Below are positions 49,530 through 63,579 of a DNA stretch of 64,000 nucleotides, one piece after another. A model generated the notes under the pieces. That model did not search any database, had not been told where the DNA came from, and saw only the letters and a list, made by a program, of their open reading frames with translations. The stretch is from an uncultured Gammaproteobacteria bacterium (GTDB taxonomy: Bacteria; Patescibacteriota; Microgenomatia; UBA8517): positions 1,617-65,616 of the forward strand of contig CAZOUV010000001.1 of assembly GCA_964583105.1 (NCBI GenBank). The letters run 5' to 3'. The translations under genes and the position numbers were made by a program. Every line of letters begins with the position of its first letter. Within the stretch, counting starts at the first letter, position 1.

Positions 49530-50537
49530 ATGCATCTTCTTGTAACAGGTGGAGCCGGATTTATAGGATCAAACTTTATTAGATATTGGCTTAAAAATCA
49601 TCCTCAGGATAAAATAAATAACTTGGACAAATTAACATATGCGGGACATATGTCATCAATCAAGGATTTTGAAAATAATAAAAATTACACTTTTATCAAG
49701 GGAGATATTTGTGATCAAAATGCGGTTGAAAAGGCAATGGATGGTGTGGACTGGGCTGTTCACTTTGCTGCCGAAAGCCACGTTGACAGATCAATTGTAG
49801 GCCCTCAGGTATTTCTTCAGACTAATGTTATAGGAACACAGGTTTTACTTGATGCAGCAGTTAAACATAACGTAAAAAAGTTTCATCATGTTTCGACGGA
49901 TGAGGTTTTTGGAGAGCTTTCTTTGGATCCTGAAGAAAAATTCCACGAAAATACTTTGTATAATCCCCGCAGTCCTTATTCTGCATCTAAAGCAGGATCT
50001 GACCATTTGGTAAGATCGTATTTTTATACATACGGTCTTCCCATAACAATTACCAACTGTTCCAATAATTACGGACCATACCAAGATCCCGAGAAATTTA
50101 TACCCCGCGCAATAACCAATTTAATCGAAGGTGAAAAAATTCCTTTGTACGGGGACGGAAAATATGTCAGGGACTGGCTTTTTGTTGAAGATCATATAAG
50201 GGCAATAGAGATTGTCTTGGAAAAAGGAAAAGTCGGTGATACTTATTTGGTTGGAGGGCTTAGCCAAGATATAAATCATCTGGAAGTAACCAAAAAACTT
50301 CTTAACATTTTTGGAAAGAACGAAGACGGTATTAAGTTTGTCAAAGACAGAAAAGGACATGACAGAAGATATGCTGTTAACTGGACTAAAATCAATAAAG
50401 AGCTTGGTTGGAAACCAAATTTTGGTTTTGACGAATGGCTTGCAAAAACCGTAGACTGGTATAAAGAAAACGAATGGTGGTGGAAGCCGCTAAAGACGGA
50501 ATCGGAAAAACTATACGAAAAAACCGGACAAAAATGA
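49530..50537 (+). CDS. rmlB: dTDP-glucose 4,6-dehydratase
   Basis: TGGAGFIGSNF, catalytic TDE and YxxxK (YSASKAGSD). Confidence 0.95.
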   Translation: MHLLVTGGAGFIGSNFIRYWLKNHPQDKINNLDKLTYAGHMSSIKDFENNKNYTFIKGDICDQNAVEKAMDGVDWAVHFAAESHVDRSIVGPQVFLQTNVIGTQVLLDAAVKHNVKKFHHVSTDEVFGELSLDPEEKFHENTLYNPRSPYSASKAGSDHLVRSYFYTYGLPITITNCSNNYGPYQDPEKFIPRAITNLIEGEKIPLYGDGKYVRDWLFVEDHIRAIEIVLEKGKVGDTYLVGGLSQDINHLEVTKKLLNIFGKNEDGIKFVKDRKGHDRRYAVNWTKINKELGWKPNFGFDEWLAKTVDWYKENEWWWKPLKTESEKLYEKTGQK

Positions 50538-51091
50538 AAGACGAAAATTATATTACAAAAACTTCTATTGAAGGTCTTTATATTGTTGAAAGGCCGATAT
50601 TTTCCGACAACCGTGGTTTTTTCAGAGAAGTCTTTAGACTCAACGACCTTGAAAAGGAAACCGGAATAGAATTTAAAATAGTTCAATCTAACCATTCGCG
50701 TTCGGTTCCTGGTGTTATCAGGGCTCTTCATGCGGAAAACTGGAACAAACTGATTTATCCCTTAACGGGGAAAGCTTTTTCGGCAATTGTTGATATAAGG
50801 CCAGATTCCCCGACATTCGGAAAGTACGAAACTTTTGAGTTCGACGGCGCTAAGCCTAAAGCCATCTTTGTATCTAAAGGGCTTGCCAATTCGGTTTGTG
50901 CTCTTGAAGATGAACCTGTGGATTATCTTTATTTTGTTGATGCCTACTACGACGGAAAAGATACTAGAGCTATTGCATGGGACGATCCGGATTTAAACAT
51001 AAAGTGGCCGGTTAAAAATCCCACAATTTCGGAAAGAGACAGAGGTAACCCCAGATTAAGAGATATGTTTCCCGAAAAATTTAATAAGTGA
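50534..51091 (+). CDS. rmlC: dTDP-4-dehydrorhamnose 3,5-epimerase
   Basis: Cupin fold motifs (RGFFRE, LHAENW, YFVDAYYDGKD). Start ATG 50534 overlaps the rmlB stop (ATGA). The track start 50474 is an in-frame upstream extension. Confidence 0.9.
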   Translation: MKDENYITKTSIEGLYIVERPIFSDNRGFFREVFRLNDLEKETGIEFKIVQSNHSRSVPGVIRALHAENWNKLIYPLTGKAFSAIVDIRPDSPTFGKYETFEFDGAKPKAIFVSKGLANSVCALEDEPVDYLYFVDAYYDGKDTRAIAWDDPDLNIKWPVKNPTISERDRGNPRLRDMFPEKFNK

Positions 51092-51125
51092 TATTTGGTG
51101 TTGAAGCTAAAATTTTTATAATTTA

Positions 51126-52037
51126 ATGAAAAAAATTTATATATCGGGATCCAGAGGAATGGTTGGTTCCAGATATATGGAATTACTGCCAAAAAATTTA
51201 CTTCCCCTTACTCCGGAAATTGATATTTTGGATATTACTAATAGGAAATCAGTAAATGCATTTTTTGATAATGAGAAACCGGATATTACTCTTCACTTTG
51301 CTGCTTTTACGGATGTTGGTGCAGCCGAAAACCAAAGGGGAGATGAAAAAGGATCCTGCTGGAAGATTAATGTAGAAGGGTCGGCAAACATTGCCGAGGC
51401 TTGTAAGAAACATAATTCTCATTTGATACATATTTCAACGGATTATTGTTTTTCGGGATTAAAGGAAGACCCCGGTCCGTATCCGGAAAGACACCCCCTT
51501 GAAAAAGATGAAAAAAAGTTGACATGGTATGGATTTACGAAAAAGGAAGCGGAAAAGGGGGTTACAAAAATTTTGGGAGACAACTTTTCGATTTTAAGAC
51601 TAATATATCCGGTTAGAGGAAAGTTTGATGCTAAACTTGATTACATCAGAAAACCCCTTTCTCTGTTTGACCAAGGGAATCTCTATCCTCTTTTTTATGA
51701 TCAACAGGTTTCAATTACCTATGTTGACGAAGCATGTTTGGCTATAAATAAAATAATTGAAGAAAAGGCATTCGGTATTTTTCACGCAAGCACTCCGGAC
51801 ACAACAACACCCTATCACCTTATTGGTTATGTAATTGAGAAAGTAAGAGGTAAAAAGGATGTGGTCAAAAAATCTTCGCTTGATGATTTTTTAAGGACGG
51901 TTGATAATCCCGCCAGATACCCTAAATTTGGTGGTTTAAAAGTAGAAGAAACCGAAAAGGGATTAAATATGAAATTCAGTTCATGGAAAGAGGTTGTTAA
52001 AAAATTGATTTTCCAGGGTTTAGGAAAAAATTCTTAA
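51126..52037 (+). CDS. rmlD: dTDP-4-dehydrorhamnose reductase
   Basis: N-terminal Rossmann fold (YISGSRGMVGS), YxxxK (YGFTKKEAEK), and its operon position after rmlABC. Confidence 0.75.
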   Translation: MKKIYISGSRGMVGSRYMELLPKNLLPLTPEIDILDITNRKSVNAFFDNEKPDITLHFAAFTDVGAAENQRGDEKGSCWKINVEGSANIAEACKKHNSHLIHISTDYCFSGLKEDPGPYPERHPLEKDEKKLTWYGFTKKEAEKGVTKILGDNFSILRLIYPVRGKFDAKLDYIRKPLSLFDQGNLYPLFYDQQVSITYVDEACLAINKIIEEKAFGIFHASTPDTTTPYHLIGYVIEKVRGKKDVVKKSSLDDFLRTVDNPARYPKFGGLKVEETEKGLNMKFSSWKEVVKKLIFQGLGKNS

Positions 52038-54003: not shown

Positions 54004-55152
54004 ATGGATAAAGTTGTAATTGTTATGCCCGCCTATAACGAAGCGGAAAATATGGGGCCGATGATCACTGAACTTTTTGAAAATGTTTTCCCTAAAATAA
54101 CCGGGGCCGAAATGAATCTTTTGGTGGTTGATGATTTCTCTCCCGATAAGACGGGGGATATTGTTAAGAAATATCAGGATAAATACAAAAATCTTCATCT
54201 TCTGCAAAAGGAGAAGGAGGGTTTGGGATGGGCATATGTTAAAGGGTTTAGATATGCTATGGAAAAACTCCATGCGGATGCGGTAATGGAAATGGATGCG
54301 GATTTTCAGCATCCTCCCAGATTTGTTATTCCCATGGTTCAGGCATATTTGGACGGAGCGGATTATGTTATCGGATCCCGTTATATTAAGGGAGGTTCTG
54401 TTCCCAAAAATTGGGAGACCTTCAGAAAACTTGTTTCCTATTTTGGGAACATGTTTATTCGTATTGTTCTTGTAAAACCCAAACTTCATGATTTGACAAC
54501 GGGTTTTAGATTAACCAGGGTAAAAGGAGTTCTTGACACAATCGATTTGGAAAATTTGATGGAGCTTAGGAGATTTTCCCATAAAGTTGACTTGTTTTAT
54601 CAAACCACTAAACGGGCAAAAAAGATTGTTGAAGTTCCTTTGGAATTTGCTTCAAGAACCAAAGAAAAATCCAAATTCAATACCAAAGAAACAATATCTA
54701 CTTTTAAGGTAGCAATAATTTTAGGGATTAAGGATAAGATAAGGTTTATTAAATTTGGGATAGTAGGCTTTACTGGTTTTGTTGTTAATTATTTAGGGCT
54801 GGAACTTTTAAAGAGAGTTGGTCTTTCCACATATTTTTCAACTCTTTTGGCAACAGAAGCCGCAATTATTTCTAATTTTATTTTTAACAATATCTGGACG
54901 TTTAAGGATAAAACGATAACTAAAGTAGCAGATATCATTCCTCAATTTTTGAAGTTCAATGTTTCTTCGCTTTTTGCCGTAATTGTTCAGCCCTTAATTG
55001 TTACAGCTGCTACTAAAATATTTACAGACAGTTCAAGTATCCGTTTTTTTGCCTTGGTATTTGCACTGATTGTTATTGTCATTCCATATAATTACATTGT
55101 TTATAACCTCTTTATCTGGAAAACATGGAAAGCCCCCTGGAAGAAGAAATAA
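54004..55152 (+). CDS. GT2 polyprenyl-phosphate sugar synthase (Dpm1/ArnC-like) fused to a C-terminal GtrA-like 4-TM domain
   Basis: VIVMPAYNEAENMG, VVDDFSPDKT, EMDADFQHPP (the DxD/D-rich GT2 motifs), and C-terminal TM helices. Confidence 0.8.
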   Translation: MDKVVIVMPAYNEAENMGPMITELFENVFPKITGAEMNLLVVDDFSPDKTGDIVKKYQDKYKNLHLLQKEKEGLGWAYVKGFRYAMEKLHADAVMEMDADFQHPPRFVIPMVQAYLDGADYVIGSRYIKGGSVPKNWETFRKLVSYFGNMFIRIVLVKPKLHDLTTGFRLTRVKGVLDTIDLENLMELRRFSHKVDLFYQTTKRAKKIVEVPLEFASRTKEKSKFNTKETISTFKVAIILGIKDKIRFIKFGIVGFTGFVVNYLGLELLKRVGLSTYFSTLLATEAAIISNFIFNNIWTFKDKTITKVADIIPQFLKFNVSSLFAVIVQPLIVTAATKIFTDSSSIRFFALVFALIVIVIPYNYIVYNLFIWKTWKAPWKKK

Positions 55153-55158
55153 TACTTC

Positions 55159-56313
55159 CTAAAGAAACGGAGCCCAGTTTGATATCGGCATGGTGTTTTG
55201 GGAAATGTAGGCAAGGGAAAAAAGAAAAATAGGAATTACAATTACCCCAAAAACTATTTTAAATTCTTTGGTGATCAGAGTATCCGAATAGGCTTTAATT
55301 AAAAAAGGAACAACAGGAAGAGCGTATCTTAAAATATCTCTGTGGGCAACAAACAAAATCGAAAGAATAAATATTCCACTAAATAGATAAAGTACATAAT
55401 CCTTTTGTTTAATAAGTTTAATTACTCCAAATATTCCCAAAAGGTAAATAAATATTATTTCTTCGAGCCAAAAAGTTCCTACCCAAGAAGAGGAGTAGTT
55501 AAAAACCGAAAACGGCGGAAACATCAGATGAATATTGTCTCCCGAATGGAAATATGCCCAAAAGTCTTTCAGCTGAATTCCAAAAAGAAGAAAAACCAAA
55601 GAAAGCGACAGCGGAATAAACAGAATTGGCCAGTACTTTTTAATTTCATCAAACCTAAATGCTGCTTTACTCTTAAGAATTAGGGGTTTAACCATCGGTA
55701 TTAAAATTGCCAGAACATATGCTGCAAAAAGAAGGATTCCTGGAGGTTTTGCTAGTTGTGCAAAAGCGCCCCAAAGTCCTGCCGAGAAGTATTTTTTCTT
55801 TTGAAAATAATAGAGGGACGCAATAATTCCTGCAATAAATAAAGGTTCTGCGGAACCTACGGATTTTACAATCAGCCAGCGGGCGGGGAAAACTGAGAAA
55901 ACAAGGGTCAAAAACAGAGAATCTGCTTCAGAATGATACTGTTTTATAAATTTATAGAAAAAGTAGCTGGCGAGAAAAGCTCCTACAGAGGTCGTAAAAA
56001 GCATTGCATACGGAAATCCTAAAACTATGGAAAATATTCTAATGAGGGTAGGAAACAAGGGGAAATGTGCTGCGTAATATTCAAGAGGAAGTGGAAATTG
56101 AAAGTTCCATTTAATAAATTCGGGATTATAGAAGCTTTTGGCAATTGCAAGATAGACGGGTCCGTCATAGTTGGAAACGATTGTTGCCATTCCTGTCTGC
56201 GGAAGCGGAATTCCCCAAAAACTTTTAAGTCTTGCAAAAAAAGGAAGCCAAACCAAAAGCGTGGGAATAAGCGATATTGCAAAAATCAGAATAATCCCTT
56301 GAATCTTTTTCAT
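55159..56313 (-). CDS. polytopic membrane protein, possible GT-C-type glycosyltransferase
   Basis: About 10-12 TM helices. No soluble domain. Confidence 0.4.
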   Translation of the reverse strand: MKKIQGIILIFAISLIPTLLVWLPFFARLKSFWGIPLPQTGMATIVSNYDGPVYLAIAKSFYNPEFIKWNFQFPLPLEYYAAHFPLFPTLIRIFSIVLGFPYAMLFTTSVGAFLASYFFYKFIKQYHSEADSLFLTLVFSVFPARWLIVKSVGSAEPLFIAGIIASLYYFQKKKYFSAGLWGAFAQLAKPPGILLFAAYVLAILIPMVKPLILKSKAAFRFDEIKKYWPILFIPLSLSLVFLLFGIQLKDFWAYFHSGDNIHLMFPPFSVFNYSSSWVGTFWLEEIIFIYLLGIFGVIKLIKQKDYVLYLFSGIFILSILFVAHRDILRYALPVVPFLIKAYSDTLITKEFKIVFGVIVIPIFLFSLAYISQNTMPISNWAPFL

Positions 56314-56343
56314 TAAGTCTATTATATGCTAGACTTTGCCTGT

Positions 56344-57045
56344 ATGGCAAAAATAGGATCTCTTTCGGTTTTTTTACCCGCTTTTAACGAGGAAAAAAAC
56401 ATCGAAAAAACCGTATTATCGGTAAAAAACATTCTTTCCGGGGTTGCTGTAACTTGGGAAATTATTATAGTTAATGACGGCTCCCAAGATAAAACGGGAG
56501 AAATTGCCGAAAATTTGACTAAAAACGACTCAAGGATAAAAGTTATCAGCCATGAAAGTAATCTTGGTTACGGTGCTTCATTAAAAAGCGGCTTTTACAA
56601 TTCAAAATATCCTTGGATTGCATTTATCGATTCCGACGGACAATTTGATTTTTCCGAGATAAGTTCATTTATCGAAAAACAAAAAGAAACCCAGGCGGAC
56701 TTGGTAATAGGCTACTACAAAAAAAGAAAAGTTTCCTTTTTTAAGGTGATTACCAGTAAGGCATGGGAACTTCTGGTTTATCTTCTTTTTGGTTTAAAGG
56801 TAAAGGATATCGATTGCGGTTTTAAACTTGTTTCAAAAAGAGTTATTGAAAAAATTCCCAAACTGGAATCCGAAAGAGGAGCTTTTATCAGCAGCGAATT
56901 TCTGATTAAAGCGAAAAAGACTGGTTTTAAAATCGTTGAAATTCCCGTTACCCATTATCCGGCAACAAGAGTTGGAACAGGTAGAAAATTAAACGTGATT
57001 ATTAAAAGTTTTTCGGATCTGATAAAACTATGGAGAAAATTGTAA
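56344..57045 (+). CDS. GT2 glycosyltransferase (Dpm1/dolichyl-phosphate glucosyltransferase-like)
   Basis: LSVFLPAFNEEKNI, IVNDGSQDKT, FIDSDGQFD. ATG 56344 is preferred to the track start. Confidence 0.8.
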   Translation: MAKIGSLSVFLPAFNEEKNIEKTVLSVKNILSGVAVTWEIIIVNDGSQDKTGEIAENLTKNDSRIKVISHESNLGYGASLKSGFYNSKYPWIAFIDSDGQFDFSEISSFIEKQKETQADLVIGYYKKRKVSFFKVITSKAWELLVYLLFGLKVKDIDCGFKLVSKRVIEKIPKLESERGAFISSEFLIKAKKTGFKIVEIPVTHYPATRVGTGRKLNVIIKSFSDLIKLWRKL

Positions 57046-58553
57046 ATTGGCTAAAGAAAAATAAAACGGAGTTCTCCCTTTTGATAATTATAGTTTTATT
57101 GGGGGGATTTCTGCGTCTTTACAGAATCGGCGAATATATGACATTTTTGGGTGATGAAGGAAGAGACGCAATTGTGGTAAGCAGGCTTTTAAAATACTTC
57201 GACATAATTTTGGTAGGTCCCGGAACTTCAATTGGAAATATGTACCTTGGACCCCTTTACTATTACATGATGGCTCTTCCCCTTTTTCTTGCAAATTTTT
57301 CTCCAGTGGGCCCTGCCGTAATGGTTGCCTTTTTAGGTCTTGCAACGGTTGCACTTATCTGGTGGGTTGGTAGAGAATGGTTCGGAAAAATTGCAGCAAT
57401 TACTGCCGCCCTTTTATATGCAATATCCCCAACCGTAATAATATATTCGCGATCTTCATGGAATCCTAACATAATGCCTTTTTTTGCACTCCTTTCGATT
57501 TATTCTATCTGGAAGGTTTGGAAGGATGAAAAATTCAACTGGCTTATTGTTTTGGGAATTTCTTTTGCTTTTGTTCTTCAATCCCACTATTTGGGCTTAA
57601 TTCTTATTCCGGTACTTATTTTGTTTTGGATTTTGGAGTATCTGAAAATTAAAAATAACAAGCTTCATTTAAAAAAATATTTGACAAAAACATTTTTAGG
57701 TTTTTTGCTGTTTTTTCTTTTGATGAGTCCTTTGCTTATTTTTGATGCGCGTCACGCGTGGAGAAACTTTTCCGCAATGCAAAGTTTTTTTACTTCCAAT
57801 CAGTCCGACCTTTCCATATCTCCCTTAAGTGCGGTTTTTAAAATAGGTCCGATATTTGAAAATGCCACAACAAGACTTCTTTCCGCGAGAAACGAAGCCG
57901 TCGGAAGTATTTTATTTTTATTATTAACATGTTTTGTTATTTGGATAATTGCAAAATGGAAAAAGCTTGATTTAAAAATCCGCCTTCCTTTTATGATGCT
58001 TTTTATCTGGCTGGGTTTTTCCTTTTTGGGTTTGGGGTTTTATAAAAAAGAGATATACGATCACTATCTTGGATTTTTGTTTCCGGCACCTTTTCTTTTA
58101 GCTGCAGCAATGTTGCAGCTTTTGATTAACAATAAAAAAGGTAAAGCTGTAGCTTTTTTAATGTTTTCTTTCTTGGTAATTTTTAATTTATTAAATACTC
58201 CAATTCGTCATTCTCCGAATTTTCAGATGCAAAGAAGTATGCATATTGCAGAGTTTATTAAAGAAAAAAGTGCAGGTGAAAGGTTTAATATTGCTACAAT
58301 TTCCGAAACCGGAAACCGCGACGTTTATCAGTACTTTCTCGAGTTATGGGGAGCAGAAGTGGTCGATACGGATCCTAGTGCTGTTAACTTTACTGTTACG
58401 GATCAGCTATTTGTTGTTTGCGAAATGCCAAAGGAAAAGTGCGATCCGACACATAACCCTTCGGCATGGATTACCGGTTTTGGCTGGACTAAAATAGTAG
58501 ATGAGTGGGAAGTTTGGGGAACAAATGTTTATAAACTGGGTCATGCCAATTGA
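57030..58553 (+). CDS. GT-C membrane glycosyltransferase, ArnT/PMT (GT39/GT83)-like, paralog 1
   Basis: About 11 TM. First-loop acidic motif FLGDEGRDA. C-terminal soluble domain. Confidence 0.65.
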   Translation: MEKIVNWLKKNKTEFSLLIIIVLLGGFLRLYRIGEYMTFLGDEGRDAIVVSRLLKYFDIILVGPGTSIGNMYLGPLYYYMMALPLFLANFSPVGPAVMVAFLGLATVALIWWVGREWFGKIAAITAALLYAISPTVIIYSRSSWNPNIMPFFALLSIYSIWKVWKDEKFNWLIVLGISFAFVLQSHYLGLILIPVLILFWILEYLKIKNNKLHLKKYLTKTFLGFLLFFLLMSPLLIFDARHAWRNFSAMQSFFTSNQSDLSISPLSAVFKIGPIFENATTRLLSARNEAVGSILFLLLTCFVIWIIAKWKKLDLKIRLPFMMLFIWLGFSFLGLGFYKKEIYDHYLGFLFPAPFLLAAAMLQLLINNKKGKAVAFLMFSFLVIFNLLNTPIRHSPNFQMQRSMHIAEFIKEKSAGERFNIATISETGNRDVYQYFLELWGAEVVDTDPSAVNFTVTDQLFVVCEMPKEKCDPTHNPSAWITGFGWTKIVDEWEVWGTNVYKLGHAN

Positions 58554-59551
58554 ATATGAATTATCAAGAATCACTGAAACTACTTGAGCTGATTAAAAAA
58601 TCAAAAAGGATTTTGATTAATTGCCATTACAAGTCAGATCCCGATGGAGTGGGGAGTGCATTGGCAATTTACCTTGCTTTAAAAAAGATCGGGGATTTTG
58701 AAATTTCACTTATTTCTCCAAGTGTTGCCCCCAAAAATTTAAATTATCTTAATGGCTTTTCGGATATAAAAAAAGTTGATTACAAAAGTTTTGATTTCTC
58801 AAAATATGACCTTTGGATTATTCCGGATGCAGCCAACTTCTGGCAGATTTCGGGAATACAAGATTTTAAGAGGCCGGAAATATCCATGATTAATTTTGAT
58901 CATCATGAGACTAATGAAGTAGATATTCAAAATAAAATTATCGAAAAAGGGCTTAGTTCAGTTTGCGAACTTTTATATAAGGTTTTTGAAGATTGGCAGA
59001 TTGATTTTGATAAAAGCATTGCCGAAGCTCTTCTTTCCGGAATCATCGGAGATACCGGAGTTTTCAGGTTTACCAATGTAACCACAAGGACTTTGGATAT
59101 TGCAAGAAAATTGATGGATTTGGGAGCTGATAAAAACATGATTGTTTCGAAAACCTACGGATCGATACCTTTTGACGAAATGAAGTTTTGGGGCAAAGTA
59201 ATAGAGTCAATGAAAAAGGAAGATGAATTTAATTTTGTCTGGGTTGCAATTAATTTGGAAGAGTACGAGAAGTATGGCAGACCTACCGATGCCAAAAGCT
59301 CTGCGGCATCGAATTTTGCAGGAATTGTAGATGAGACCGATTTTGGAATAATTATGGTTGAGGAAAAGAAGGATTTTGTAACCTGCAGTTTCAGATCACG
59401 TGGGGACTTTGATATTTCCCCGATTGCTCAGGAATTGGGAGGTGGAGGACATAAAGAAGCAGCAGGAGCAAGAATAGTTGGACTTTCCTTTGAGAATGCC
59501 GTAGAAAAAGTTTTGGATGTTGCCAAAAAACATGCTAAAAAAACTTCTTAA
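58550..59551 (+). CDS. DHH/DHHA1 phosphoesterase (NrnA-like)
   Basis: DHH motif (INFDHHETN) and DHHA1 GGGGHKEAAGA. Confidence 0.8.
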   Translation: MNMNYQESLKLLELIKKSKRILINCHYKSDPDGVGSALAIYLALKKIGDFEISLISPSVAPKNLNYLNGFSDIKKVDYKSFDFSKYDLWIIPDAANFWQISGIQDFKRPEISMINFDHHETNEVDIQNKIIEKGLSSVCELLYKVFEDWQIDFDKSIAEALLSGIIGDTGVFRFTNVTTRTLDIARKLMDLGADKNMIVSKTYGSIPFDEMKFWGKVIESMKKEDEFNFVWVAINLEEYEKYGRPTDAKSSAASNFAGIVDETDFGIIMVEEKKDFVTCSFRSRGDFDISPIAQELGGGGHKEAAGARIVGLSFENAVEKVLDVAKKHAKKTS

Positions 59552-61040
59552 GGAAATTTCGGATCATAAACTGACATATCTTTCCCTTTTTATCATTCTT
59601 GGCTTGGGACTTTTTTTAAGAGTTTATAATATTGAAAGATTATTGGGTTTTCATTTCGATCAAGGAAGAGACGCATTAATCATCTGGGATCTTTGGCATT
59701 CGGGAGATGTTCCGTTTATAGGACCCACTACAGGAATTGCCGGAATTTTCAGAGGACCTTTTTATTATTATCTGATCGCACCTTTTTATTTACTGGGTAG
59801 AGGAAATCCTGTTTGGCCGTCTGTCTTTCTTTCTCTGACAACCGTTATTGCGTCTTTGTTGATGTATTATTTGGGCTATAAAATTCAAAATAGGATTACC
59901 GGATTAATTGCCGCTCTTTTATCTTCTCTATCCTTTAACATAGTTGCCGCTTCACGCTGGCTTTCAAATCCTACACCAATGCTTTTTTTAAGTGTTCTAT
60001 TTGTCTGGATGCTGATTTTGATTGTTGAGAAAAAAGTTTGGGCATGGATTCCCGCAATTTTCATTGCCTCAATTTCATTGTTTCATTTCGGTTCAGCGGG
60101 GGAAGTGTTTTATTTTCCTGCACTTTTAATAATATTATTTTGGCAGAGAAAAAAATTACCAAACAAAAAAATTATAATATTATCCATATTATCGTTTTTA
60201 ATCAGTGTTTTGCCGCTAATTGCATTCGACATCAAAAATAAAGGAATTCTCTCAGGAAATATAGGTAAGTTTTTGATCACAGATAAAAGTTTTTCACTTC
60301 CTTCTTGGGCAATGGTTTTTGAAAAAATATACTTTTACTACAATACTTTTACCAACAAGATATTTAACGCAAGGTATTACTTGGAAAAAACAGTATTAAG
60401 TACCGTCCTGATTTTATTTGTTTATCATTTTAAGAATCTTTTTAAGAAAAACGGCGTAAAGGTTTTGGCTATTCTTTTATCGTCGGTTTGTCTGGGATTG
60501 ATATTTTTTCAGGGCAATTTTGGAAATATCTATGACTATTATTTGACAGGATACTATCTTCCCTTTCTCCTTCTTTTTTCTATAGTTTTGGGGTATCTTG
60601 TAAGGTTTAAATTGGGAACTATCTTTGTTGTATATTTTATTTATTTATTTATGACCAATAATTTCGATGTTTTGCATTTTAAATACTGGGACAAATCCCA
60701 AGGACCGAATAGTATCGGATTTATCAATCAAAAAGAAGTTGTCAGGTGGATATATCAAGACGCCGGAGAGAACATCTTTAATGTAGATGTTTATGTTCCT
60801 CCCGTAATTTCCTACTCCTATGATTATTTGCTGAAATGGTTGCCAACAACGGACGAATACAAAAGCTATGATGGTAAAAAGGTTGATGAAAACGTTTCCC
60901 TTCTATATACGCTTTACGAATCCGATTCCGATCATCAGGAAAGACTGGATAGCTGGCTTTTAAGACAGAAAAAAATAGGAAAGGTTATTGACGAATTTAA
61001 ATCCGGTTCGATTACCGTCCAAAGAAGATTGAGGTTATGA
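59517..61040 (+). CDS. GT-C membrane glycosyltransferase, ArnT/PMT-like, paralog 2
   Basis: Same topology as paralog 1. Motif FHFDQGRDA. Confidence 0.65.
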   Translation: MLPKNMLKKLLKEISDHKLTYLSLFIILGLGLFLRVYNIERLLGFHFDQGRDALIIWDLWHSGDVPFIGPTTGIAGIFRGPFYYYLIAPFYLLGRGNPVWPSVFLSLTTVIASLLMYYLGYKIQNRITGLIAALLSSLSFNIVAASRWLSNPTPMLFLSVLFVWMLILIVEKKVWAWIPAIFIASISLFHFGSAGEVFYFPALLIILFWQRKKLPNKKIIILSILSFLISVLPLIAFDIKNKGILSGNIGKFLITDKSFSLPSWAMVFEKIYFYYNTFTNKIFNARYYLEKTVLSTVLILFVYHFKNLFKKNGVKVLAILLSSVCLGLIFFQGNFGNIYDYYLTGYYLPFLLLFSIVLGYLVRFKLGTIFVVYFIYLFMTNNFDVLHFKYWDKSQGPNSIGFINQKEVVRWIYQDAGENIFNVDVYVPPVISYSYDYLLKWLPTTDEYKSYDGKKVDENVSLLYTLYESDSDHQERLDSWLLRQKKIGKVIDEFKSGSITVQRRLRL

Positions 61041-62521
61041 AAAATAGATTAAAAAATTTTATTAAAAATAACTGGATTTTAATTTTAATTTTATTAATAG
61101 GTCTTGCTTTCAGAATTTATAAACCCCTTCAGCTTTATATGTACGGACACGATCAGGATTTGGCAGGATGGATAGTAAAAGATATCTTGATAAACAAGCA
61201 TTTAAGGCTTATAGGACAGGAAACATCTTCTCAGGGGGTATTTATAGGACCACTTTTTTATTATTTGCAGATACCTTTTTATCTTTTAACCAGAATGGAT
61301 TCTTGGGGAACATTAATTTTAGTTACTCTGCTGGGTTTATTTTCTATATTTTCTTTTTATTTTTGTTTTTCAAAGATCTTTGGGAGAAAAGCAGGTTTGA
61401 TATCCGCTTTTCTCTATGCAATCGGAGTCTATTTTATTTTTACGGATAGGGAAGTCGTTCCCACCATGCCGGTCCACCTTTGGGCCGTCTGGTTTTTTTA
61501 CGGACTTCACCTTCTTTTAAAAGGGAAAAGCGGGGCATATATTCTTTTGGGAATTCTTCTTGGACTTGCTTGGAATATTAATTTGGCCCTGGTTATTCTT
61601 ACTCCACTGATTTTGCTGGCACAGTATCTTTCCAAGAAAAACTTGAATTTTAAACATATAGCTATCGGAATAATTTTATTTGTAGTTACTTTTTCCCCTT
61701 TTTTGGTTTTTGAGTTAAGGCATTCATTCAGACAGACAAGAGCTATTGTAACGTCTCTTACGACAAGTAAAGATTATGTTCAGGGAACAAGCAGGGGAAT
61801 ACATAAATTAAACCGCGTATATCAAATTGTAAAGAAAAATACTTCCGCAGTTATCTGGGGAAGATTTAGTAAAATAGGTTATTCATTGACACTATTTATT
61901 CTTCTCGGAATTTACATTTTCCTTCTAAAGAAAAAGATAATCCAAAAAAACATGGGAATAATAATGACTGCTTGGCTACTTATCTATGTAATCTTTTTTA
62001 CATTAAATTCGATTAACATTTCCGAGTATTACCTTAACGGAATGAATGTTGTCTGGATCGCAATTCTTTCCTTGTTTATCAATTATCTTTTAAATAAAAA
62101 ATATTGGGGATATTTGGTAATTTTTATAATTGCAGTATCAAACTTGAGAGAGTTTGTTTTAAGGCCTATTAATAGAAGCGGATATTTGGAAAGAAAGGCA
62201 ATTGTTGAATATATCGATTCGGATGCAAAACTACATAACTATCCCTGCATTTCTGTCTCATACATAACCTCTCCAGGAAATAATTTGGGATACAGATGTT
62301 TTTTCTGGCTTAATAAAATGCATGTTAATCAGCCGAAATCGGGAAGCCCTGTTTATTCAATAGTTTTTCCTCATAGCATGGTAGATAGAATAGATAAGGA
62401 CTTTGGAGCTTTGGGTTTGATTTTGCCGGATTACAAAAAGTATACTGAAAGTCAGGTTAAAGATAGCTGTCAGGGAGCAAATTCGAATTTAGTTGATCCT
62501 ATGGGCGGCTATACAAAGTAA
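61037..62521 (+). CDS. GT-C membrane glycosyltransferase, ArnT/PMT-like, paralog 3
   Basis: Same topology. Motif YGHDQDLAG. Overlaps the previous stop. Confidence 0.6.
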   Translation: MKNRLKNFIKNNWILILILLIGLAFRIYKPLQLYMYGHDQDLAGWIVKDILINKHLRLIGQETSSQGVFIGPLFYYLQIPFYLLTRMDSWGTLILVTLLGLFSIFSFYFCFSKIFGRKAGLISAFLYAIGVYFIFTDREVVPTMPVHLWAVWFFYGLHLLLKGKSGAYILLGILLGLAWNINLALVILTPLILLAQYLSKKNLNFKHIAIGIILFVVTFSPFLVFELRHSFRQTRAIVTSLTTSKDYVQGTSRGIHKLNRVYQIVKKNTSAVIWGRFSKIGYSLTLFILLGIYIFLLKKKIIQKNMGIIMTAWLLIYVIFFTLNSINISEYYLNGMNVVWIAILSLFINYLLNKKYWGYLVIFIIAVSNLREFVLRPINRSGYLERKAIVEYIDSDAKLHNYPCISVSYITSPGNNLGYRCFFWLNKMHVNQPKSGSPVYSIVFPHSMVDRIDKDFGALGLILPDYKKYTESQVKDSCQGANSNLVDPMGGYTK

Positions 62522-62522
62522 T

Positions 62523-63266
62523 ATGCAAAAATTATCAATTGTAATTCCTGCCTACAATGAAGAAAGAACCATTAAAAACGGTTCCCTACAGGATGTTTGG
62601 AATTATCTAAATAAACAAAACTACAATTGGGAAATAATTGTTGTGGATGATGCATCCACCGATAGAACCCTATCTCTTTCTAAAGATTTTGCTAAAAGTC
62701 ACAAGGGTATTACTGTTCTTCCGGAACCACATAGAGGAAAAGGGGGAACGGTTATTGCGGGAATGCTAAAGGCTTCGGGAGATATCGTGATTTTTGCGGA
62801 TATGGATCAGGCAACCCCGATTAATCAGGTAGAAAAGTTACTGCCCAAATTTAACCAGGGCTTTGATATTGTCATAGGATCAAGGTCGGGAAGAGAAGGA
62901 GCACCTTTAATAAGAAAGGCCATGGCTTATGGTTTTTCCCTTCTTAGAACAATAGTTCTTAGGCTTCCGTATAGAGATACACAGTGCGGATTCAAAGCAT
63001 TTAAAAAAGATGCCGCAAGAAGTATTTTTGACAAGATGAGGGTTGTTAATGAAAAAATCCTGGAGGGAGGAGCTTCTGTTTCGGCGGGATTTGATTTGGA
63101 GGTTTTATATATTGCAAGAAAATTGGGATATAAAGTTGCGGAAGTAGAAGTTGAGTGGCACCACAAGCAAACTGAAAGAATAAACCCCATCAAAGATTCC
63201 TATGAAGGTTTAAGAGATCTTTTAAAAGTAAGGTTTAACGCTTTATTTGGAAAGTACGGTGTATAA
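62523..63266 (+). CDS. GT2 glycosyltransferase (Dpm1-like polyprenyl-phosphate sugar synthase)
   Basis: LSIVIPAYNEERTI, VVDDASTDRT, FADMDQATP. ATG 62523 is preferred. Confidence 0.8.
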   Translation: MQKLSIVIPAYNEERTIKNGSLQDVWNYLNKQNYNWEIIVVDDASTDRTLSLSKDFAKSHKGITVLPEPHRGKGGTVIAGMLKASGDIVIFADMDQATPINQVEKLLPKFNQGFDIVIGSRSGREGAPLIRKAMAYGFSLLRTIVLRLPYRDTQCGFKAFKKDAARSIFDKMRVVNEKILEGGASVSAGFDLEVLYIARKLGYKVAEVEVEWHHKQTERINPIKDSYEGLRDLLKVRFNALFGKYGV

Positions 63267-63273: not shown

Positions 63274-63579
63274 GTGAATATTAAAAAAGCGGGACTAATT
63301 CAAGCGTTGGGAGTGACAATATACTGTTCTTTAGTAGGTCTTCTTTTTTGGCAGGGAAACCGACTTTTTCCCAAGGTTAATCAATATTTTGCTCCGGTTA
63401 TGATGCTTCTTCTTTTAAGCTTCTCGGTTCTTATTTGCGGACTTATCGTATTTTATAAACCCTACAGACTATTTTTTGATGGAAAGAAAAAAGACGCAAT
63501 AAACTTGGTTCTTAATACATCAATTTTTTTGTTTGTTTTTCTATTTGTTTTCTTTCTTCTAATGATTGTTTTTAAGTAG
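63274..63579 (+). CDS. small membrane protein (3 TM), hypothetical
   Basis: ORF only. GtrA-like size. Confidence 0.35.
   Translation: MNIKKAGLIQALGVTIYCSLVGLLFWQGNRLFPKVNQYFAPVMMLLLLSFSVLICGLIVFYKPYRLFFDGKKKDAINLVLNTSIFLFVFLFVFFLLMIVFK

What the first reader, a model, noticed from the sequence alone, without database searches (positions are those of the whole stretch)
54004..63266. Three tandem pairs of Dpm1-like GT2 synthase + ArnT/PMT-like GT-C transferase, with an embedded DHH phosphoesterase
The GT2 genes at 54004 (with a GtrA-like flippase-type tail), 56344 and 62523 resemble polyprenyl-phosphate sugar synthases. The genes at 57030, 59517 and 61037 are three paralogous ~500-aa 11-TM GT-C enzymes with first-loop acidic motifs (DEGRDA, DQGRDA, HDQDLAG), typical of lipid-linked sugar to acceptor transferases (ArnT, PMT, AglB-like logic). 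A fourth polytopic protein (55159-56313) is encoded antisense. Together with the upstream nucleotide-sugar genes this is a large lipid-carrier-dependent surface glycosylation system with triplicated transferase specificity. It is unusual for a small genome and may glycosylate proteins such as the PT-rich surface proteins, pili or S-layer, or wall polymers.
Basis: partly seen in the sequence, partly recalled or inferred. Interest (0 to 1): 0.55.

Follow-up and report, generated by a model that had tools for sequence, protein, structure and literature searches.

The report
Lipid-linked surface glycosylation locus of Woesebacteria
This 9-kb stretch of a tiny-genome (CPR, Woesebacteria-type) bacterium encodes three enzymes that probably load sugars onto a membrane lipid and four membrane enzymes that probably pass those sugars to targets outside the cell; it is a known kind of system that is conserved across this lineage, and its targets are unknown.

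Summary
The genes are real and sit at the stated coordinates. There are three GT2 enzymes, three paralogous PMT_2-type GT-C proteins (24-25% identical to each other) and an NrnA-like DHH/DHHA1 gene. The "antisense polytopic protein" is a fourth GT-C-fold enzyme with no Pfam family. Predicted structures (pLDDT about 89) match only GT-C glycosyltransferases (AglB, PglB, STT3, ArnT, PMT, ALG, Emb/Aft, PimE).

GT2a aligns over its whole length with Pyrococcus Dol-P-mannose synthase (E 3e-45). It keeps 12 of the 13 substrate-contact residues I checked. GT2b and GTC1 are fused into one protein in some relatives.

The order TrmD(-), GT2a, TM4(-), GT2b, GTC1, DHH, GTC2, [GTC3], GT2c recurs in dozens of Woesebacteria/Microgenomates genomes, often downstream of rmlABCD. 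The locus is therefore typical of the lineage, not unusual for it. "Three tandem pairs" oversimplifies the layout.

[quoted passage not shown] Sugars (GT2a probably mannose), flippase and acceptors remain unknown. Candidate acceptors are PT-rich sortase substrates or a wall glycan. The DHH gene is probably a bystander.

Verdict: a new member of a known kind, of moderate interest.

The parts
54004..55152 (+). GT2a: polyprenyl-phosphate mannose synthase-like enzyme. It has a GT-A catalytic domain, interface helices and a C-terminal 4-helix GtrA/DPMS membrane domain.
   Evidence: Pfam PF00535 3e-28 and PF04138 2e-17. P. furiosus DPMS 5mlz matches at E 2.9e-45 over aa 3-332. The DADFQH motif and residues equivalent to E12, D39, R117, R131, S135, K178, R202 and K208 are conserved (with PMC5526996). 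It is adjacent to TM4 in 70 of 70 loci.
55159..56313 (-). TM4: fourth GT-C-fold glycosyltransferase ('Gpi18-like'), with no Pfam family. It is convergent with GT2a and divergent from the GT2b operon.
   Evidence: No Pfam hit even at E 10. Weak NCBIfam hit to a 'cell surface glycopolymer formation' family, 1e-6. Orthologs are 52-83% identical, and some are named Gpi18-like mannosyltransferase by JGI. AF2 model pLDDT 88.5, pTM 0.90. Foldseek finds only GT-C enzymes: STT3, PglB, AglB, ArnT (TM 0.50-0.56) and PimE (0.51/0.51). N48 and D50-G51-P52 are invariant in the first loop and Y49 nearly so.
56326..57045 (+). GT2b: soluble GT2, a probable polyprenyl-phosphate sugar synthase and partner of GTC1. 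The likely start is ATG 56344.
   Evidence: PF00535 3e-32. Best solved relatives are GtrB (1e-14), ArnC (5e-14) and DPMS (3e-13). It overlaps GTC1 by 16 nt. It is fused to GTC1 in P0022, P0067, P0068, P0078, P0086 and P0103, and in loci L001 and L045.
57030..58553 (+). GTC1: GT-C glycosyltransferase with about 11 TM helices, a D42-E43 motif in the first external loop, and a C-terminal alpha/beta domain (aa ~395-507) with nearly invariant C464 and C471.
   Evidence: PMT_2 1e-12 and PMT 3e-7. AF2 pLDDT 88.9, pTM 0.89. Foldseek: AglB E 2e-8; ArnT 5f15 TM 0.61/0.58; ALG12 0.57/0.60; Pmt4 0.55/0.56. Transporters reach only TM ~0.12 and probability ~0.1. More than 4,420 homologs.
58550..59551 (+). 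NrnA-like DHH/DHHA1 phosphoesterase. It is cytoplasmic with no TM helix, and is probably a housekeeping passenger.
   Evidence: DHH 4e-16 and DHHA1 2e-9. NCBIfam NrnA 1e-26 but 93.6 bits against a cut-off of 350. DHH and GGGGH motifs are visible in the sequence. It occupies this position in 46 of 58 loci. It is tandemly triplicated in L070.
59517..61040 (+). GTC2: paralogous GT-C glycosyltransferase (FDQGRDA motif).
   Evidence: PMT_2 2e-7. 25% identical to GTC1 over the full length, E 4e-29. Present in 48 of 58 loci.
61037..62521 (+). GTC3: paralogous GT-C glycosyltransferase (HDQDLAG motif). This is the variable member of the locus.
   Evidence: PMT_2 1e-9. 24-26% identical to GTC1 and GTC2. 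Present in 23 of 58 loci. Some loci instead carry a ~1,035-aa fusion of a PTPS_related membrane domain with PMT_2.
62493..63266 (+). GT2c: soluble GT2, a probable polyprenyl-phosphate sugar synthase. The likely start is ATG 62523.
   Evidence: PF00535 3e-29. Best solved relatives are DPMS (3e-17), ArnC (3e-15) and GtrB (2e-13). NCBIfam Dol-P-hexose transferase 9e-18. Present in 52 of 58 loci.
63274..63579 (+). 101-aa ORF with three hydrophobic helices directly after GT2c. Whether it belongs to the system is uncertain.
   Evidence: No Pfam or NCBIfam hit. Hydropathy predicts 3 TM helices. No similar ORF follows GT2c in the relatives.
46953..52037 (+). Upstream nucleotide-sugar supply: GalU-like (46953-47849), long-form RmlA (48354-49526), RmlB (49530-50537), RmlC (50474-51091) and RmlD (51126-52037). 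An unrelated RNaseH-like gene (47859-48341) lies among them.
   Evidence: Pfam. NCBIfam rmlA_long 326.6 bits against a cut-off of 320; RmlB 465.8 against 365; galU 264 against 327. RmlD lies upstream in 38 of 65 related loci.
43425..44405 (+). GalE UDP-glucose 4-epimerase (sugar supply).
   Evidence: NCBIfam TIGR01179 395.9 bits against a cut-off of 262.
44449..45702 (+). Speculative acceptor module: a Cys-rich, PT-rich protein with a C-terminal hydrophobic and basic tail (44449-45126), followed by a sortase (45133-45702).
   Evidence: Sequence. 77% Ser/Thr/Pro in a 30-aa window. Sortase PF04203 3e-16. Relatives carry PT-rich LAATG/LATTG-tailed ORFs upstream of their sortase.
42288..43097 (+). 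Speculative acceptor: a secreted protein with a PT-rich linker and a C-terminal TM anchor.
   Evidence: Sequence. 77% Ser/Thr/Pro in a 30-aa window. No Pfam or NCBIfam hit.

Best explanation
The region is a multi-component transmembrane glycosylation locus of a Woesebacteria-type CPR bacterium.

Proposed steps:
1. On the cytoplasmic face, three GT2 enzymes each transfer one sugar from a nucleotide sugar to polyprenyl (undecaprenyl-type) phosphate. GT2a most likely makes polyprenyl-P-mannose from GDP-mannose. GT2b and GT2c make other polyprenyl-P-hexoses; UDP-Glc and UDP-Gal are plausible donors because GalU-like and GalE genes lie nearby.
2. The lipid-linked sugars are flipped across the membrane by an unidentified flippase.
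3. On the outer face, four GT-C-fold enzymes (TM4, GTC1, GTC2, GTC3) each use a first-loop Asp (D42 in GTC1, D50 in TM4) to transfer the sugar to extracytoplasmic acceptors.

Shown here: the family and fold of every enzyme, the GT2b-GTC1 functional link through gene fusions, conservation of the DPMS substrate-contact residues in GT2a, and conservation of the locus across the lineage.

Inferred: the sugar identities, the topology (N-terminus inside, first loop and C-terminal domain outside), flipping, and the acceptors.

My best guess for the acceptors is more than one class. One class would be Ser/Thr in the PT-rich linkers of secreted or sortase-anchored proteins encoded nearby. The other would be a wall-associated, possibly rhamnose-containing, glycan.

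The DHH/DHHA1 gene is most likely an NrnA-type housekeeping phosphoesterase that travels with the operon. TrmD and an RNaseH-like gene do the same.
For: Pfam and NCBIfam assignments for all genes.

GT2 enzymes:
- GT2a matches P. furiosus DPMS over catalytic and membrane domains, E 2.9e-45. DADFQH, D39 (guanine contact), R117, R131, S135, K178, R202 and K208 are conserved (residue roles from PMC5526996).
- The best solved relatives of GT2b and GT2c are all polyprenyl-P-monosaccharide synthases: GtrB, ArnC and DPMS.

GT-C enzymes:
- GTC1 and TM4 models are confident.
- Their significant Foldseek matches are GT-C glycosyltransferases almost exclusively (the only others, for TM4, are the PIGU subunit of GPI transamidase); transporters appear only at noise level.
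- An Asp in the first loop is invariant across paralogs and orthologs.
- GTC2 and GTC3 are full-length paralogs of GTC1.

Genetic linkage:
- GT2b-GTC1 fusion proteins occur in relatives.
- Genes from 56326 to 63266 overlap or abut on one strand.
- The locus order is conserved: GTC1 in 56 of 58 loci, GT2c 52, GT2b 50, GTC2 48, and GT2a next to TM4 in 70 of 70.
- Orthologs are 47-66% identical against 24-28% for paralogs, so the paralogs are old and kept separately.

Precedent: Gram-positive systems with several GT2/GT-C pairs, many carrying PMT_2-type GT-C enzymes, include L. lactis CsdAB/CD/EF and B. subtilis CsbB/YfhO, YkoT/YkoS and YkcC/YkcB (PMC8035078).
Against: - No biochemical data exist for any CPR homolog; no paper was found.
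- No stand-alone GtrA- or Wzx-type flippase was found in the window or in 81 related loci.
- No GDP-mannose pathway gene lies in the 64-kb window, although GT2a looks GDP-mannose-specific.
- dTDP-rhamnose genes lie next door, but no evident rhamnosyltransferase is in the locus.
- GT2b and GT2c lack membrane segments. They could be ordinary GT2 enzymes acting on a lipid-linked oligosaccharide rather than monosaccharide-phosphate-lipid synthases.
- Conserved synteny in this lineage also includes unrelated genes (TrmD, RNaseH-like, DHH), so adjacency alone is weak evidence of function.
Confidence: 0.75

Rival explanations
1. A dedicated protein O-glycosylation system of the Ppm1/Pmt or streptococcal GtrB/PgtC2 type. 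Under this reading all the GT-C enzymes glycosylate Ser/Thr in PT-rich disordered linkers of secreted, sortase-anchored or membrane proteins, and each paralog serves a different protein class or sugar.
For: - PMT_2 and PMT hits, and a D-E motif in loop 1 of GTC1 as in PMTs.
- Three PT/ST-rich envelope proteins lie in the window, one directly upstream of a sortase.
- PT-rich LAATG/LATTG-tailed ORFs lie upstream of the sortase in relatives. In loci without rml genes the sortase module sits directly next to TrmD-GT2a.
- Precedents: actinobacterial Ppm1/Pmt (PMC5882110) and streptococcal glycosylation of S/T-rich disordered regions (PMC12041528).
Against: - No PMT_4TMC domain; GTC1 ends in a soluble alpha/beta domain as ArnT does.
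- No significant sequence match to solved PMTs (E 0.97). The best TM-scores among the Foldseek matches are to ArnT and ALG12 rather than to PMT.
- GTC2 and GTC3 have D-Q rather than D-E.
- Most characterised bacterial PMT_2-type GT-C enzymes decorate polymers, not proteins (PMC8035078).
- One distant TM4 relative carries a glycan-binding PA14 domain.
Confidence: 0.35
2. Decoration of a rhamnose-containing wall polysaccharide or a teichoic-acid-like polymer, as in GacI/GacL or CsdAB/CD/EF. The rml genes would supply the backbone sugar, and the GT2/GT-C sets would add side-chain sugars outside the membrane.
For: - rmlABCD lies directly upstream here, and RmlD lies upstream in 38 of 65 relatives.
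- The architecture is the same as in the systems tabulated in PMC8035078.
- TM4 has a weak NCBIfam hit to a 'cell surface glycopolymer formation' family.
- A PA14 fusion occurs in a TM4 relative.
Against: - The ORFs profiled in the 64-kb window include no backbone machinery: no priming phosphoglycosyltransferase, rhamnosyltransferase, ABC or Wzx exporter, or LCP ligase.
- About 40% of informative relatives lack rml genes next to the locus.
Confidence: 0.3
3. An extracytoplasmic assembly line rather than a decoration system. The four to six GT-C enzymes would act in sequence to build a lipoglycan or glycan from polyprenyl-P-sugars, as mycobacterial PimE, Mpt, Emb and Aft enzymes build LM, LAM and arabinogalactan.
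For: - Each locus carries many distinct, anciently diverged GT-C types; 2-5 lie downstream of TM4.
- The fold matches include PimE, AftA, AftB, AftD and Emb.
- TM4 is conserved in every locus compared, which would fit a core envelope role.
Against: - The fold matches to PimE, Emb and Aft are no better than those to OST or ArnT.
- No lipid anchor synthesis genes (for example PimA/PimB-like GT4) were seen.
- The number of GT-C genes varies between close relatives, which fits optional decorations better than an obligatory sequential pathway.
Confidence: 0.12
4. The ~500-aa polytopic proteins are transporters or other non-enzymatic membrane proteins.
For: Only the general fact that they are polytopic membrane proteins with weak family scores (PMT_2 E 1e-7 to 1e-12).
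Against: - All PMT_2 scores exceed Pfam's gathering cut-off.
- 43 GT-C structures rank ahead of the first transporter. Transporters (MFS, LtaA, GLUT1) reach only TM 0.10-0.14 and probability ~0.1.
- The first-loop Asp is invariant.
- Fusions to a GT2 domain occur in relatives.
Confidence: 0.02

Closest known systems
Multi-component (three-component) transmembrane glycosylation systems of Gram-positive bacteria, e.g. L. lactis CsdA/B, CsdC/D and CsdE/F with flippase CflA; B. subtilis CsbB/YfhO, YkoT/YkoS and YkcC/YkcB; S. pyogenes GacI/GacJ/GacK/GacL (PMC8035078)
   Same: - A GT-A (GT2) polyprenyl-P-sugar synthase works with a polytopic GT-C transferase that has an acidic motif in an external loop.
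- One organism carries several GT2/GT-C sets.
- Many of the GT-C enzymes carry PMT_2.
- Structure comparison gives the same top matches: AglB, PglB, STT3, ArnT and AftD.
- Soluble GT2 variants exist (GacI).
   Different: - No stand-alone GtrA or Wzx flippase is in or near the locus.
- All sets are clustered in one conserved locus rather than scattered.
- The ratio is four GT-C to three GT2.
- One GT2 is an archaeal-DPMS-type enzyme.
- The acceptor is unknown, and the host is a CPR bacterium with a genome of about 1 Mb.
Pyrococcus furiosus dolichyl-phosphate mannose synthase (PDB 5MLZ; PMC5526996)
   Same: GT2a aligns over the catalytic domain, interface helices and four-helix membrane domain (E 2.9e-45). 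It keeps DADxQH and the GDP-mannose and phosphate contacts.
   Different: - The host is bacterial, so the lipid is presumably undecaprenyl-type rather than dolichol.
- The F177 gate residue is His.
- Activity and sugar are untested.
- No GDP-mannose synthesis gene is in the window.
Actinobacterial Ppm1 / Pmt protein O-mannosylation (PMC5882110, PMC11727336)
   Same: - A polyprenyl-P-mannose synthase works with a PMT-family GT-C.
- GTC1 has a D-E motif in loop 1.
- PT-rich secreted proteins are plausible acceptors.
   Different: - GTC1-3 lack the PMT_4TMC C-terminal module and end in a soluble domain.
- They have no significant sequence match to solved PMTs.
- GTC2 and GTC3 have D-Q.
ArnC / ArnT lipid A aminoarabinose pathway (PDB 5F15, 9BHC)
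   Same: - ArnT gives the highest TM-score among the Foldseek matches for GTC1, 0.61/0.58, with the same architecture of a TM core plus a small C-terminal external domain.
- The GT2 enzymes match ArnC at 1e-14 to 1e-15.
   Different: - No ArnA, ArnB or ArnD genes are present.
- CPR bacteria of this type are not known to make lipid A (my own knowledge).
- Sequence identity is 12-13%.
Streptococcal GtrB/PgtC2 and Pgf (PgfS/PgfM1/PgfE/PgfM2) O-glycosylation of Ser/Thr-rich disordered regions (PMC12041528)
   Same: - A GT2 Und-P-sugar synthase works with GT-C enzymes that glycosylate S/T-rich extracytoplasmic tails.
- PgfS is the top NCBIfam hit for all three GT2 enzymes.
- The window encodes a membrane protein with an ST-rich C-terminal tail (35726-36388) and PT-rich surface proteins.
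   Different: The PgfS scores (69-82 bits) are far below the equivalog cut-off of 500. No glycoprotein evidence exists.
Mycobacterial PimE (GT87) and eukaryotic GPI mannosyltransferase I (PIG-M family; structure 9wno); eukaryotic PIG-V/Gpi18 (GT76) only through the JGI name
   Same: TM4 orthologs are labelled 'Gpi18-like mannosyltransferase' by JGI. Fold similarity to PimE is 0.51/0.51 and to GPI-MT-I 0.51/0.49. Size is similar (~380-400 aa). It lies next to a probable polyprenyl-P-mannose synthase.
   Different: - No Pfam family is matched.
- OST and ArnT structures match equally well.
- Neither donor nor acceptor has been tested.

Membership tests
Polyprenyl/dolichyl-phosphate mannose synthase, PfDPMS type (GT2) - GT2a | GT-A catalytic domain (PF00535) followed by a four-helix GtrA/DPMS membrane domain (PF04138) | tested here: met
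   3e-28 and 2e-17, both above gathering cut-offs; alignment to 5mlz runs through both domains.
Polyprenyl/dolichyl-phosphate mannose synthase, PfDPMS type (GT2) - GT2a | DADLQH metal and donor motif, plus donor and acceptor contacts E12, D39, R117, R131, S135, F177, K178, R202 and K208 | tested here: met
   with residue roles from PMC5526996. The motif reads DADFQH, and every listed residue is conserved except F177, which is His.
Polyprenyl/dolichyl-phosphate mannose synthase, PfDPMS type (GT2) - GT2a | Forms polyprenyl-P-mannose from GDP-mannose | not testable with these tools
   Needs an enzyme assay. No GDP-mannose pathway gene lies in the window.
Multi-component transmembrane glycosylation system | A GT-A polyprenyl-P-sugar synthase genetically linked to a GT-C transferase | tested here: met
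   GT2b and GTC1 overlap by 16 nt and are fused in relatives. GT2a and TM4 are adjacent in 70 of 70 loci.
Multi-component transmembrane glycosylation system | GT-C fold with a conserved Asp-containing motif in an extracytoplasmic loop | tested here: met
   Fold. D42 (GTC1-3) and D50 (TM4) are invariant. The external location is inferred from the K-rich N-terminus and the GT-C architecture; it was not measured.
Multi-component transmembrane glycosylation system | A GtrA- or Wzx-type flippase | tested here: inconclusive
   The only GtrA-like element is the membrane domain of GT2a. An HMM of that domain finds no stand-alone copy in the window or in 81 loci. A flippase could be encoded elsewhere in the genome.
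Multi-component transmembrane glycosylation system | A defined extracytoplasmic acceptor (teichoic acid, wall polysaccharide, O-antigen, protein) | not testable with these tools
   There are only circumstantial candidates: PT-rich proteins and rml genes.
Protein O-mannosyltransferase (PMT, GT39) - GTC1-3 | Match to PMT / PMT_2 profiles | tested here: met
   PMT_2 at 49, 31.9 and 39 bits (cut-off 26.1). PMT at 30.5 bits (cut-off 22.7), for GTC1 only.
Protein O-mannosyltransferase (PMT, GT39) - GTC1-3 | Asp-Glu motif in loop 1 | tested here: inconclusive
   GTC1 has D42-E43, with E43 nearly invariant in orthologs. GTC2 and GTC3 have D-Q.
Protein O-mannosyltransferase (PMT, GT39) - GTC1-3 | C-terminal four-TM module (PMT_4TMC) after the large external loop | tested here: not met
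   No PF16192 hit at E<=0.01. The model ends in a soluble alpha/beta domain, aa ~395-507.
Protein O-mannosyltransferase (PMT, GT39) - GTC1-3 | Significant sequence relationship to characterised PMTs | tested here: not met
   A profile of 56 sequences against PDB gives Pmt4 at E 0.97. The single sequence gives no hit at E<=1.
ArnT (GT83) - GTC1 | GT-C core plus a small C-terminal periplasmic domain | tested here: met
   ArnT 5f15 gives the highest TM-score among the Foldseek matches, 0.61/0.58. The C-terminal domain is in the model.
ArnT (GT83) - GTC1 | Arn pathway context (ArnA, ArnB, ArnD) and a lipid A acceptor | tested here: not met
   No such genes among the ORFs profiled in the 64-kb window or called or BLAST-matched in the related loci.
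NrnA (DHH/DHHA1 nanoRNase / pAp phosphatase) - 58550-59551 | DHH plus DHHA1 domains with DHH and GGGH motifs | tested here: met
   for the domains. The FDHH and GGGGH motifs are visible in the translation.
NrnA (DHH/DHHA1 nanoRNase / pAp phosphatase) - 58550-59551 | Reaches the NCBIfam equivalog score | tested here: not met
   93.6 bits against a cut-off of 350. It is a distant member, and its substrate is unknown.
GPI mannosyltransferases (PIG-V/Gpi18, GT76; GPI-MT-I) / PimE (GT87) - TM4 | Profile or fold match specific to these families | tested here: inconclusive
   No Pfam match. PimE and GPI-MT-I match at TM ~0.5, but OST and ArnT do so as well or better. The JGI label 'Gpi18-like' comes from that source's own annotation.

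The most novel reading that the evidence does not exclude
The locus could be a lineage-defining, self-contained extracytoplasmic glycan factory of Woesebacteria. Four to six anciently diverged GT-C enzymes, including a family unknown to Pfam (TM4), would build a surface glycan or glycoprotein coat entirely from polyprenyl-P-monosaccharides. One GT2 might make a polyprenyl-P-rhamnose donor from the adjacent dTDP-rhamnose pathway; as far as I know such a donor has not been described. The embedded DHH phosphoesterase, which is tandemly expanded in some relatives, would then be a working part, for example clearing nucleotide by-products, rather than a passenger.
Probability: 0.1. Interest if true: 0.65.

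Novelty: new member of a known kind. Interest (0 to 1): 0.38.

Why it matters
CPR/Patescibacteria are thought to live attached to other cells, and their surfaces are almost unstudied. This locus takes up about 1% of a genome of roughly 1 Mb and keeps the same order across dozens of Woesebacteria species. These reduced organisms therefore appear to invest steadily in lipid-linked surface glycosylation.

The locus offers concrete, testable parts:
- a DPMS-type synthase with intact active-site residues;
- a natural GT2-GT-C fusion;
- a well-conserved GT-C family with no Pfam model;
- nearby PT-rich sortase substrates as candidate acceptors.

It does not reveal a new mechanism. The enzyme kinds and the overall logic are already known from Firmicutes, Actinobacteria and Archaea.

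Tried and rejected
- PDB sequence searches with GTC1, with its 56-sequence profile and with the TM4 profile gave nothing significant.
The organism is therefore inferred from relatives.
- The promoter and terminator scan was no better than shuffled sequence: 35 found against 39.6 expected, and 15 against 11.5. One 11-of-12 promoter-like site lies just upstream of TM4 (56350-56321, minus strand).
- I looked for a stand-alone GtrA-like flippase using an HMM of the GT2a membrane domain and found none.
- I considered the 101-aa ORF after GT2c as a GacJ-like helper. It has no family hit and is not conserved after GT2c in relatives, so this is unsupported.
- I considered that the long TM4 relatives (674-749 aa) might be GT2 fusions. 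Their N-terminal extensions have no Pfam domain, so I rejected this.
- I considered that the ~640-aa RmlB proteins of relatives might be RmlA-RmlB fusions. The extra ~310 aa match neither NTP-transferase nor any Pfam family.
- Literature searches for GT39, PMT, ArnT or cell-envelope glycosylation in CPR, Patescibacteria, Woesebacteria or Microgenomates found no relevant study.
- The transporter reading was rejected on fold evidence.

Full report
**What is there**

Pfam assigns them as follows.

| Gene | Coordinates | Pfam result |
|---|---|---|
| GT2a | 54004-55152 (+) | Glycos_transf_2 (3e-28) plus GtrA_DPMS_TM (2e-17) |
| TM4 | 55159-56313 (-) | no hit (384 aa, polytopic) |
| GT2b | 56326-57045 (+) | Glycos_transf_2 (3e-32) |
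| GTC1 | 57030-58553 (+) | PMT_2 (1e-12), PMT (3e-7) |
| DHH gene | 58550-59551 (+) | DHH plus DHHA1 |
| GTC2 | 59517-61040 (+) | PMT_2 (2e-7) |
| GTC3 | 61037-62521 (+) | PMT_2 (1e-9) |
| GT2c | 62493-63266 (+) | Glycos_transf_2 (3e-29) |

They fit the length of the orthologs better than the upstream starts.

From 56326 to 63266 the genes overlap or abut on one strand. GT2b overlaps GTC1 by 16 nt, GTC1 overlaps DHH by 4 nt, DHH overlaps GTC2 by 35 nt, and GTC2 overlaps GTC3 by 4 nt. TM4 is convergent with GT2a and divergent from GT2b.

The three PMT_2 proteins are collinear, full-length paralogs. They are 24-25% identical, with E 2e-15 to 4e-29. The three GT2 enzymes are 25-28% identical. That Asp (D42 in GTC1) is invariant in a 56-sequence alignment that includes all three paralogs.

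**Are the polytopic proteins GT-C enzymes or transporters?**

Sequence searches of PDB gave nothing, so I modelled GTC1 and TM4 from ortholog alignments. Both models are confident: pLDDT 88.9 with pTM 0.89, and pLDDT 88.5 with pTM 0.90.

For GTC1, Foldseek against PDB returned about 40 matches with probability 1.00, and all are GT-C glycosyltransferases. They include AglB (E 2e-8), ArnT 5f15 (TM 0.61/0.58), ALG12 (0.57/0.60), PglB, STT3, Pmt4 (0.55/0.56), ALG9, AftB, AftD and Emb. The first transporters appear with TM ~0.12 and probability ~0.1.

TM4 gives the same picture, matching STT3, PglB, AglB and ArnT at TM 0.50-0.56, PimE at 0.51/0.51 and GPI-MT-I at 0.51/0.49. It is therefore a fourth GT-C-fold enzyme. 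It has no Pfam family even at E 10. Several orthologs are labelled 'Gpi18-like mannosyltransferase' by JGI.

A profile search of 1.84 billion representative proteins finds 1,730 relatives of TM4. Distant members keep the first-loop (Y/R)(W/Y)DGPxY motif, which corresponds to N48-Y49-D50-G51-P52 in the window protein. One distant member carries a C-terminal PA14 domain.

The GTC1 model has about 11 TM helices. It ends in a soluble alpha/beta domain (aa ~395-507) with two nearly invariant cysteines. With the Lys-rich N-terminus inside the cell, I infer that the first loop and this domain face outside.

**The GT2 enzymes**

GT2a matches Pyrococcus furiosus Dol-P-mannose synthase (5mlz) at E 2.9e-45 over residues 3-332, covering the catalytic, interface and membrane domains. 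The next solved relatives, GtrB and ArnC, reach only about 1e-7.

I mapped the residues described in the structure paper (PMC5526996) onto the alignment. The DADLQH motif reads DADFQH. The equivalents of E12, D39 (guanine contact), R117, R131, S135, K178, R202 and K208 are conserved. Only the gate residue F177 differs, and it is His. GT2a is therefore most likely a GDP-mannose:polyprenyl-phosphate mannosyltransferase.

Its 'GtrA-like tail' is the membrane domain that DPMS itself has. It is not evidence of a flippase.

GT2b and GT2c are soluble, at 239 and 257 aa. Their best solved relatives are all polyprenyl-P-monosaccharide synthases: GtrB, ArnC and DPMS, at 1e-13 to 3e-17. Their best NCBIfam hits are PgfS, ArnC, PpgS and a Dol-P-hexose transferase, all far below equivalog cut-offs. 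Their sugars cannot be assigned.

**Context and relatives**

The upstream genes are GalE (43425), a GalU-like gene (46953), long-form RmlA (48354), and RmlB, RmlC and RmlD (49530-52037). An HD-domain gene and trmD follow on the minus strand. The rest of the window holds housekeeping genes. I found no GDP-mannose pathway, polysaccharide export gene or LCP ligase.

GTC1 has more than 4,420 database homologs, and the best ones are 50-70% identical. Where named, they are called 'glycosyltransferase family 39' or 'ArnT-like' and come from Woesebacteria or Microgenomates. Six of the top 120 are GT2-GT-C fusion proteins of 717-739 aa. One of them lies on a contig with the same gene order as the window. 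This links GT2b and GTC1 functionally.

A scan of species-representative genomes found 430 that encode a TM4 relative. The best 80 are Woesebacteria, Microgenomates or Patescibacteria. Some of these records are titled 'uncultured Gammaproteobacteria', which I take to be mislabelling.

I annotated the 81 loci against the window proteins. The core order is TrmD(-), GT2a, TM4(-), GT2b, GTC1, DHH, GTC2, [GTC3], GT2c.

| Feature | Count |
|---|---|
| GT2a adjacent to TM4 | 70 of 70 |
| GTC1 present | 56 of 58 |
| GT2c present | 52 of 58 |
| GT2b present | 50 of 58 |
| GTC2 present | 48 of 58 |
| DHH present | 46 of 58 |
| GTC3 present | 23 of 58 |
| RmlD upstream | 38 of 65 |

The window's exact order is the commonest single pattern. 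Orthologs are 47-66% identical, against 24-28% for the paralogs, so the paralogs predate the divergence of these genomes.

The downstream end of the locus varies. In 33 of the 81 loci a further PMT_2-type GT-C ('GTC4', motif LPVFADEAIY[IV]RW) lies downstream, directly after GT2c in many of them. Some loci carry a ~1,035-aa fusion of a PTPS_related domain with PMT_2. Others carry an extra 298-aa GT2. The window has none of these. Its GT2c is followed by a 101-aa three-helix ORF and then a RdgB/HAM1-like gene.

The locus is therefore typical of the lineage rather than unusual. 'Three tandem pairs' does not describe its organisation.

**Mechanism**

1. GT2 enzymes make polyprenyl-P-sugars on the cytoplasmic face.
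2. The lipid-linked sugars are flipped across the membrane.
3. GT-C enzymes transfer the sugars to extracytoplasmic acceptors.

This is the logic reviewed for Gram-positive bacteria in PMC8035078. L. lactis has three GT2/GT-C pairs (CsdAB, CsdCD, CsdEF) that share one flippase. B. subtilis also has three pairs. Many of those GT-C enzymes carry PMT_2, and structure-based comparison returns the same top hits as here.

Families, folds, the fusion link and conservation were shown in this analysis. Sugar identity, topology, flipping and acceptors are inferred. No stand-alone GtrA-like protein was found in the window or in the related loci.

**Acceptors**

Two candidate classes have only circumstantial support.

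*PT-rich surface proteins.* The window encodes three candidates:
- 42288-43097 has a signal peptide, a PT-rich linker and a C-terminal anchor.
- 44449-45126 is Cys-rich and PT-rich with a hydrophobic, basic tail, and lies directly upstream of a sortase.
- 35726-36388 is a membrane protein with an ST-rich tail.

Relatives have PT-rich ORFs with LAATG- or LATTG-type tails upstream of their sortase. In loci without rml genes the sortase module sits next to TrmD-GT2a. This resembles actinobacterial Ppm1/Pmt (PMC5882110) and the streptococcal glycosylation of S/T-rich disordered regions (PMC12041528).

*A wall glycan.* The adjacent rml genes, the weak hit of TM4 to a 'glycopolymer formation' family and the PA14 fusion point this way. 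However, no backbone-synthesis genes are in the window.

A mycobacterial-style assembly line is possible but less likely. I cannot decide between these options.

**The DHH gene**

The DHH protein has intact DHH and GGGH motifs and no TM segment, and it is a distant NrnA relative (93.6 bits against a cut-off of 350). It occupies the same slot in 46 of 58 loci but is missing there in 12. Unrelated genes (trmD, an RNaseH-like gene) are equally syntenic. I therefore read it as a housekeeping passenger.

One observation does not fit that reading comfortably. L070 has three tandem, intact DHH paralogs that are 41-44% identical to each other, and L056 has two, in the same slot.

**Membership**

- GT2a meets every testable feature of PfDPMS-type synthases.
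- GTC1-3 should not be filed as true PMTs. They lack PMT_4TMC, have no significant match to solved PMTs, and two of the three lack the D-E motif.
- They should not be filed as ArnT either, because there is no Arn pathway context. They work like both families without being members.
- TM4 belongs to an unnamed GT-C family.

**Novelty**

No paper on these genes in CPR was found. The enzyme kinds and the overall logic are established. This is a new member of a known kind, of moderate interest for CPR surface biology.

Noticed in passing
L070:13464-16462 and L056:13339-15392 (coordinates on the reverse complement of the stored locus, i.e. in window gene orientation): The DHH/DHHA1 gene between GTC1 and GTC2 is tandemly triplicated in L070. 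The copies are 41-44% identical, all with DHH and GGGH motifs. It is duplicated in L056. This is odd for a housekeeping nanoRNase in a reduced genome.
   Followed up: partly
window 44449-45702; also 42288-43097 and 35726-36388: A PT-rich, Cys-rich protein with a C-terminal hydrophobic and basic tail lies directly upstream of a sortase. Two further envelope proteins have PT- or ST-rich segments. Relatives have LAATG/LATTG-tailed PT-rich ORFs upstream of their sortase. These may be variant sortase substrates and possible glycosylation targets.
   Followed up: partly
related loci, e.g. L039:18199-19785, L050:16050-19163, L020:16704-17600 (reverse-complement coordinates, as above): The downstream end of the locus varies between relatives. 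Variants include a further PMT_2-type GT-C ('GTC4', motif LPVFADEAIYIRW) after GT2c, a ~1,035-aa fusion of a PTPS_related membrane domain with PMT_2, and an extra 298-aa GT2. None of these is in the window.
   Followed up: partly
L021:2113-4029 and 14 other loci (reverse-complement coordinates, as above): RmlB is ~630-644 aa long in 15 relatives. The C-terminal extension of ~310 aa matches no Pfam family and neither NTP-transferase of the window.
   Followed up: partly
window 52034-53281 (-): A 415-aa HD-domain protein is inserted between rmlD and trmD. It has no NCBIfam match and is not found at this position in the relatives; only L006 has a homolog, and that lies elsewhere.
   Followed up: no
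Genome contigs records (e.g. L005, L007, L019, L024, L076): Many MAG records titled 'uncultured Gammaproteobacteria bacterium' carry this Woesebacteria-type locus with 52-63% identical TM4. The titles are almost certainly wrong taxonomic labels.
   Followed up: no
window 20296-21870: The lysyl-tRNA synthetase is of the class I type (PF01921, 2e-88). That type is usual in archaea and uncommon in bacteria.
   Followed up: no
window 39561-42291: FtsE-like ABC ATPase and FtsX genes are followed by a 388-aa protein with a C-terminal Peptidase_C39-like domain. It may be an FtsEX-controlled wall hydrolase analog.
   Followed up: no
P0386, P0306, P0312, P0372 (distant TM4-family members): Outside CPR the TM4 family occurs fused to a C-terminal PA14 glycan-binding domain (P0386). 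It also occurs with a ~300-aa N-terminal extension that has no Pfam match. The (Y/R)(W/Y)DGPxY motif is kept throughout.
   Followed up: partly
window 63274-63579: A 101-aa ORF with three hydrophobic helices follows GT2c directly. It has no family match and is not conserved at that position in relatives.
   Followed up: partly
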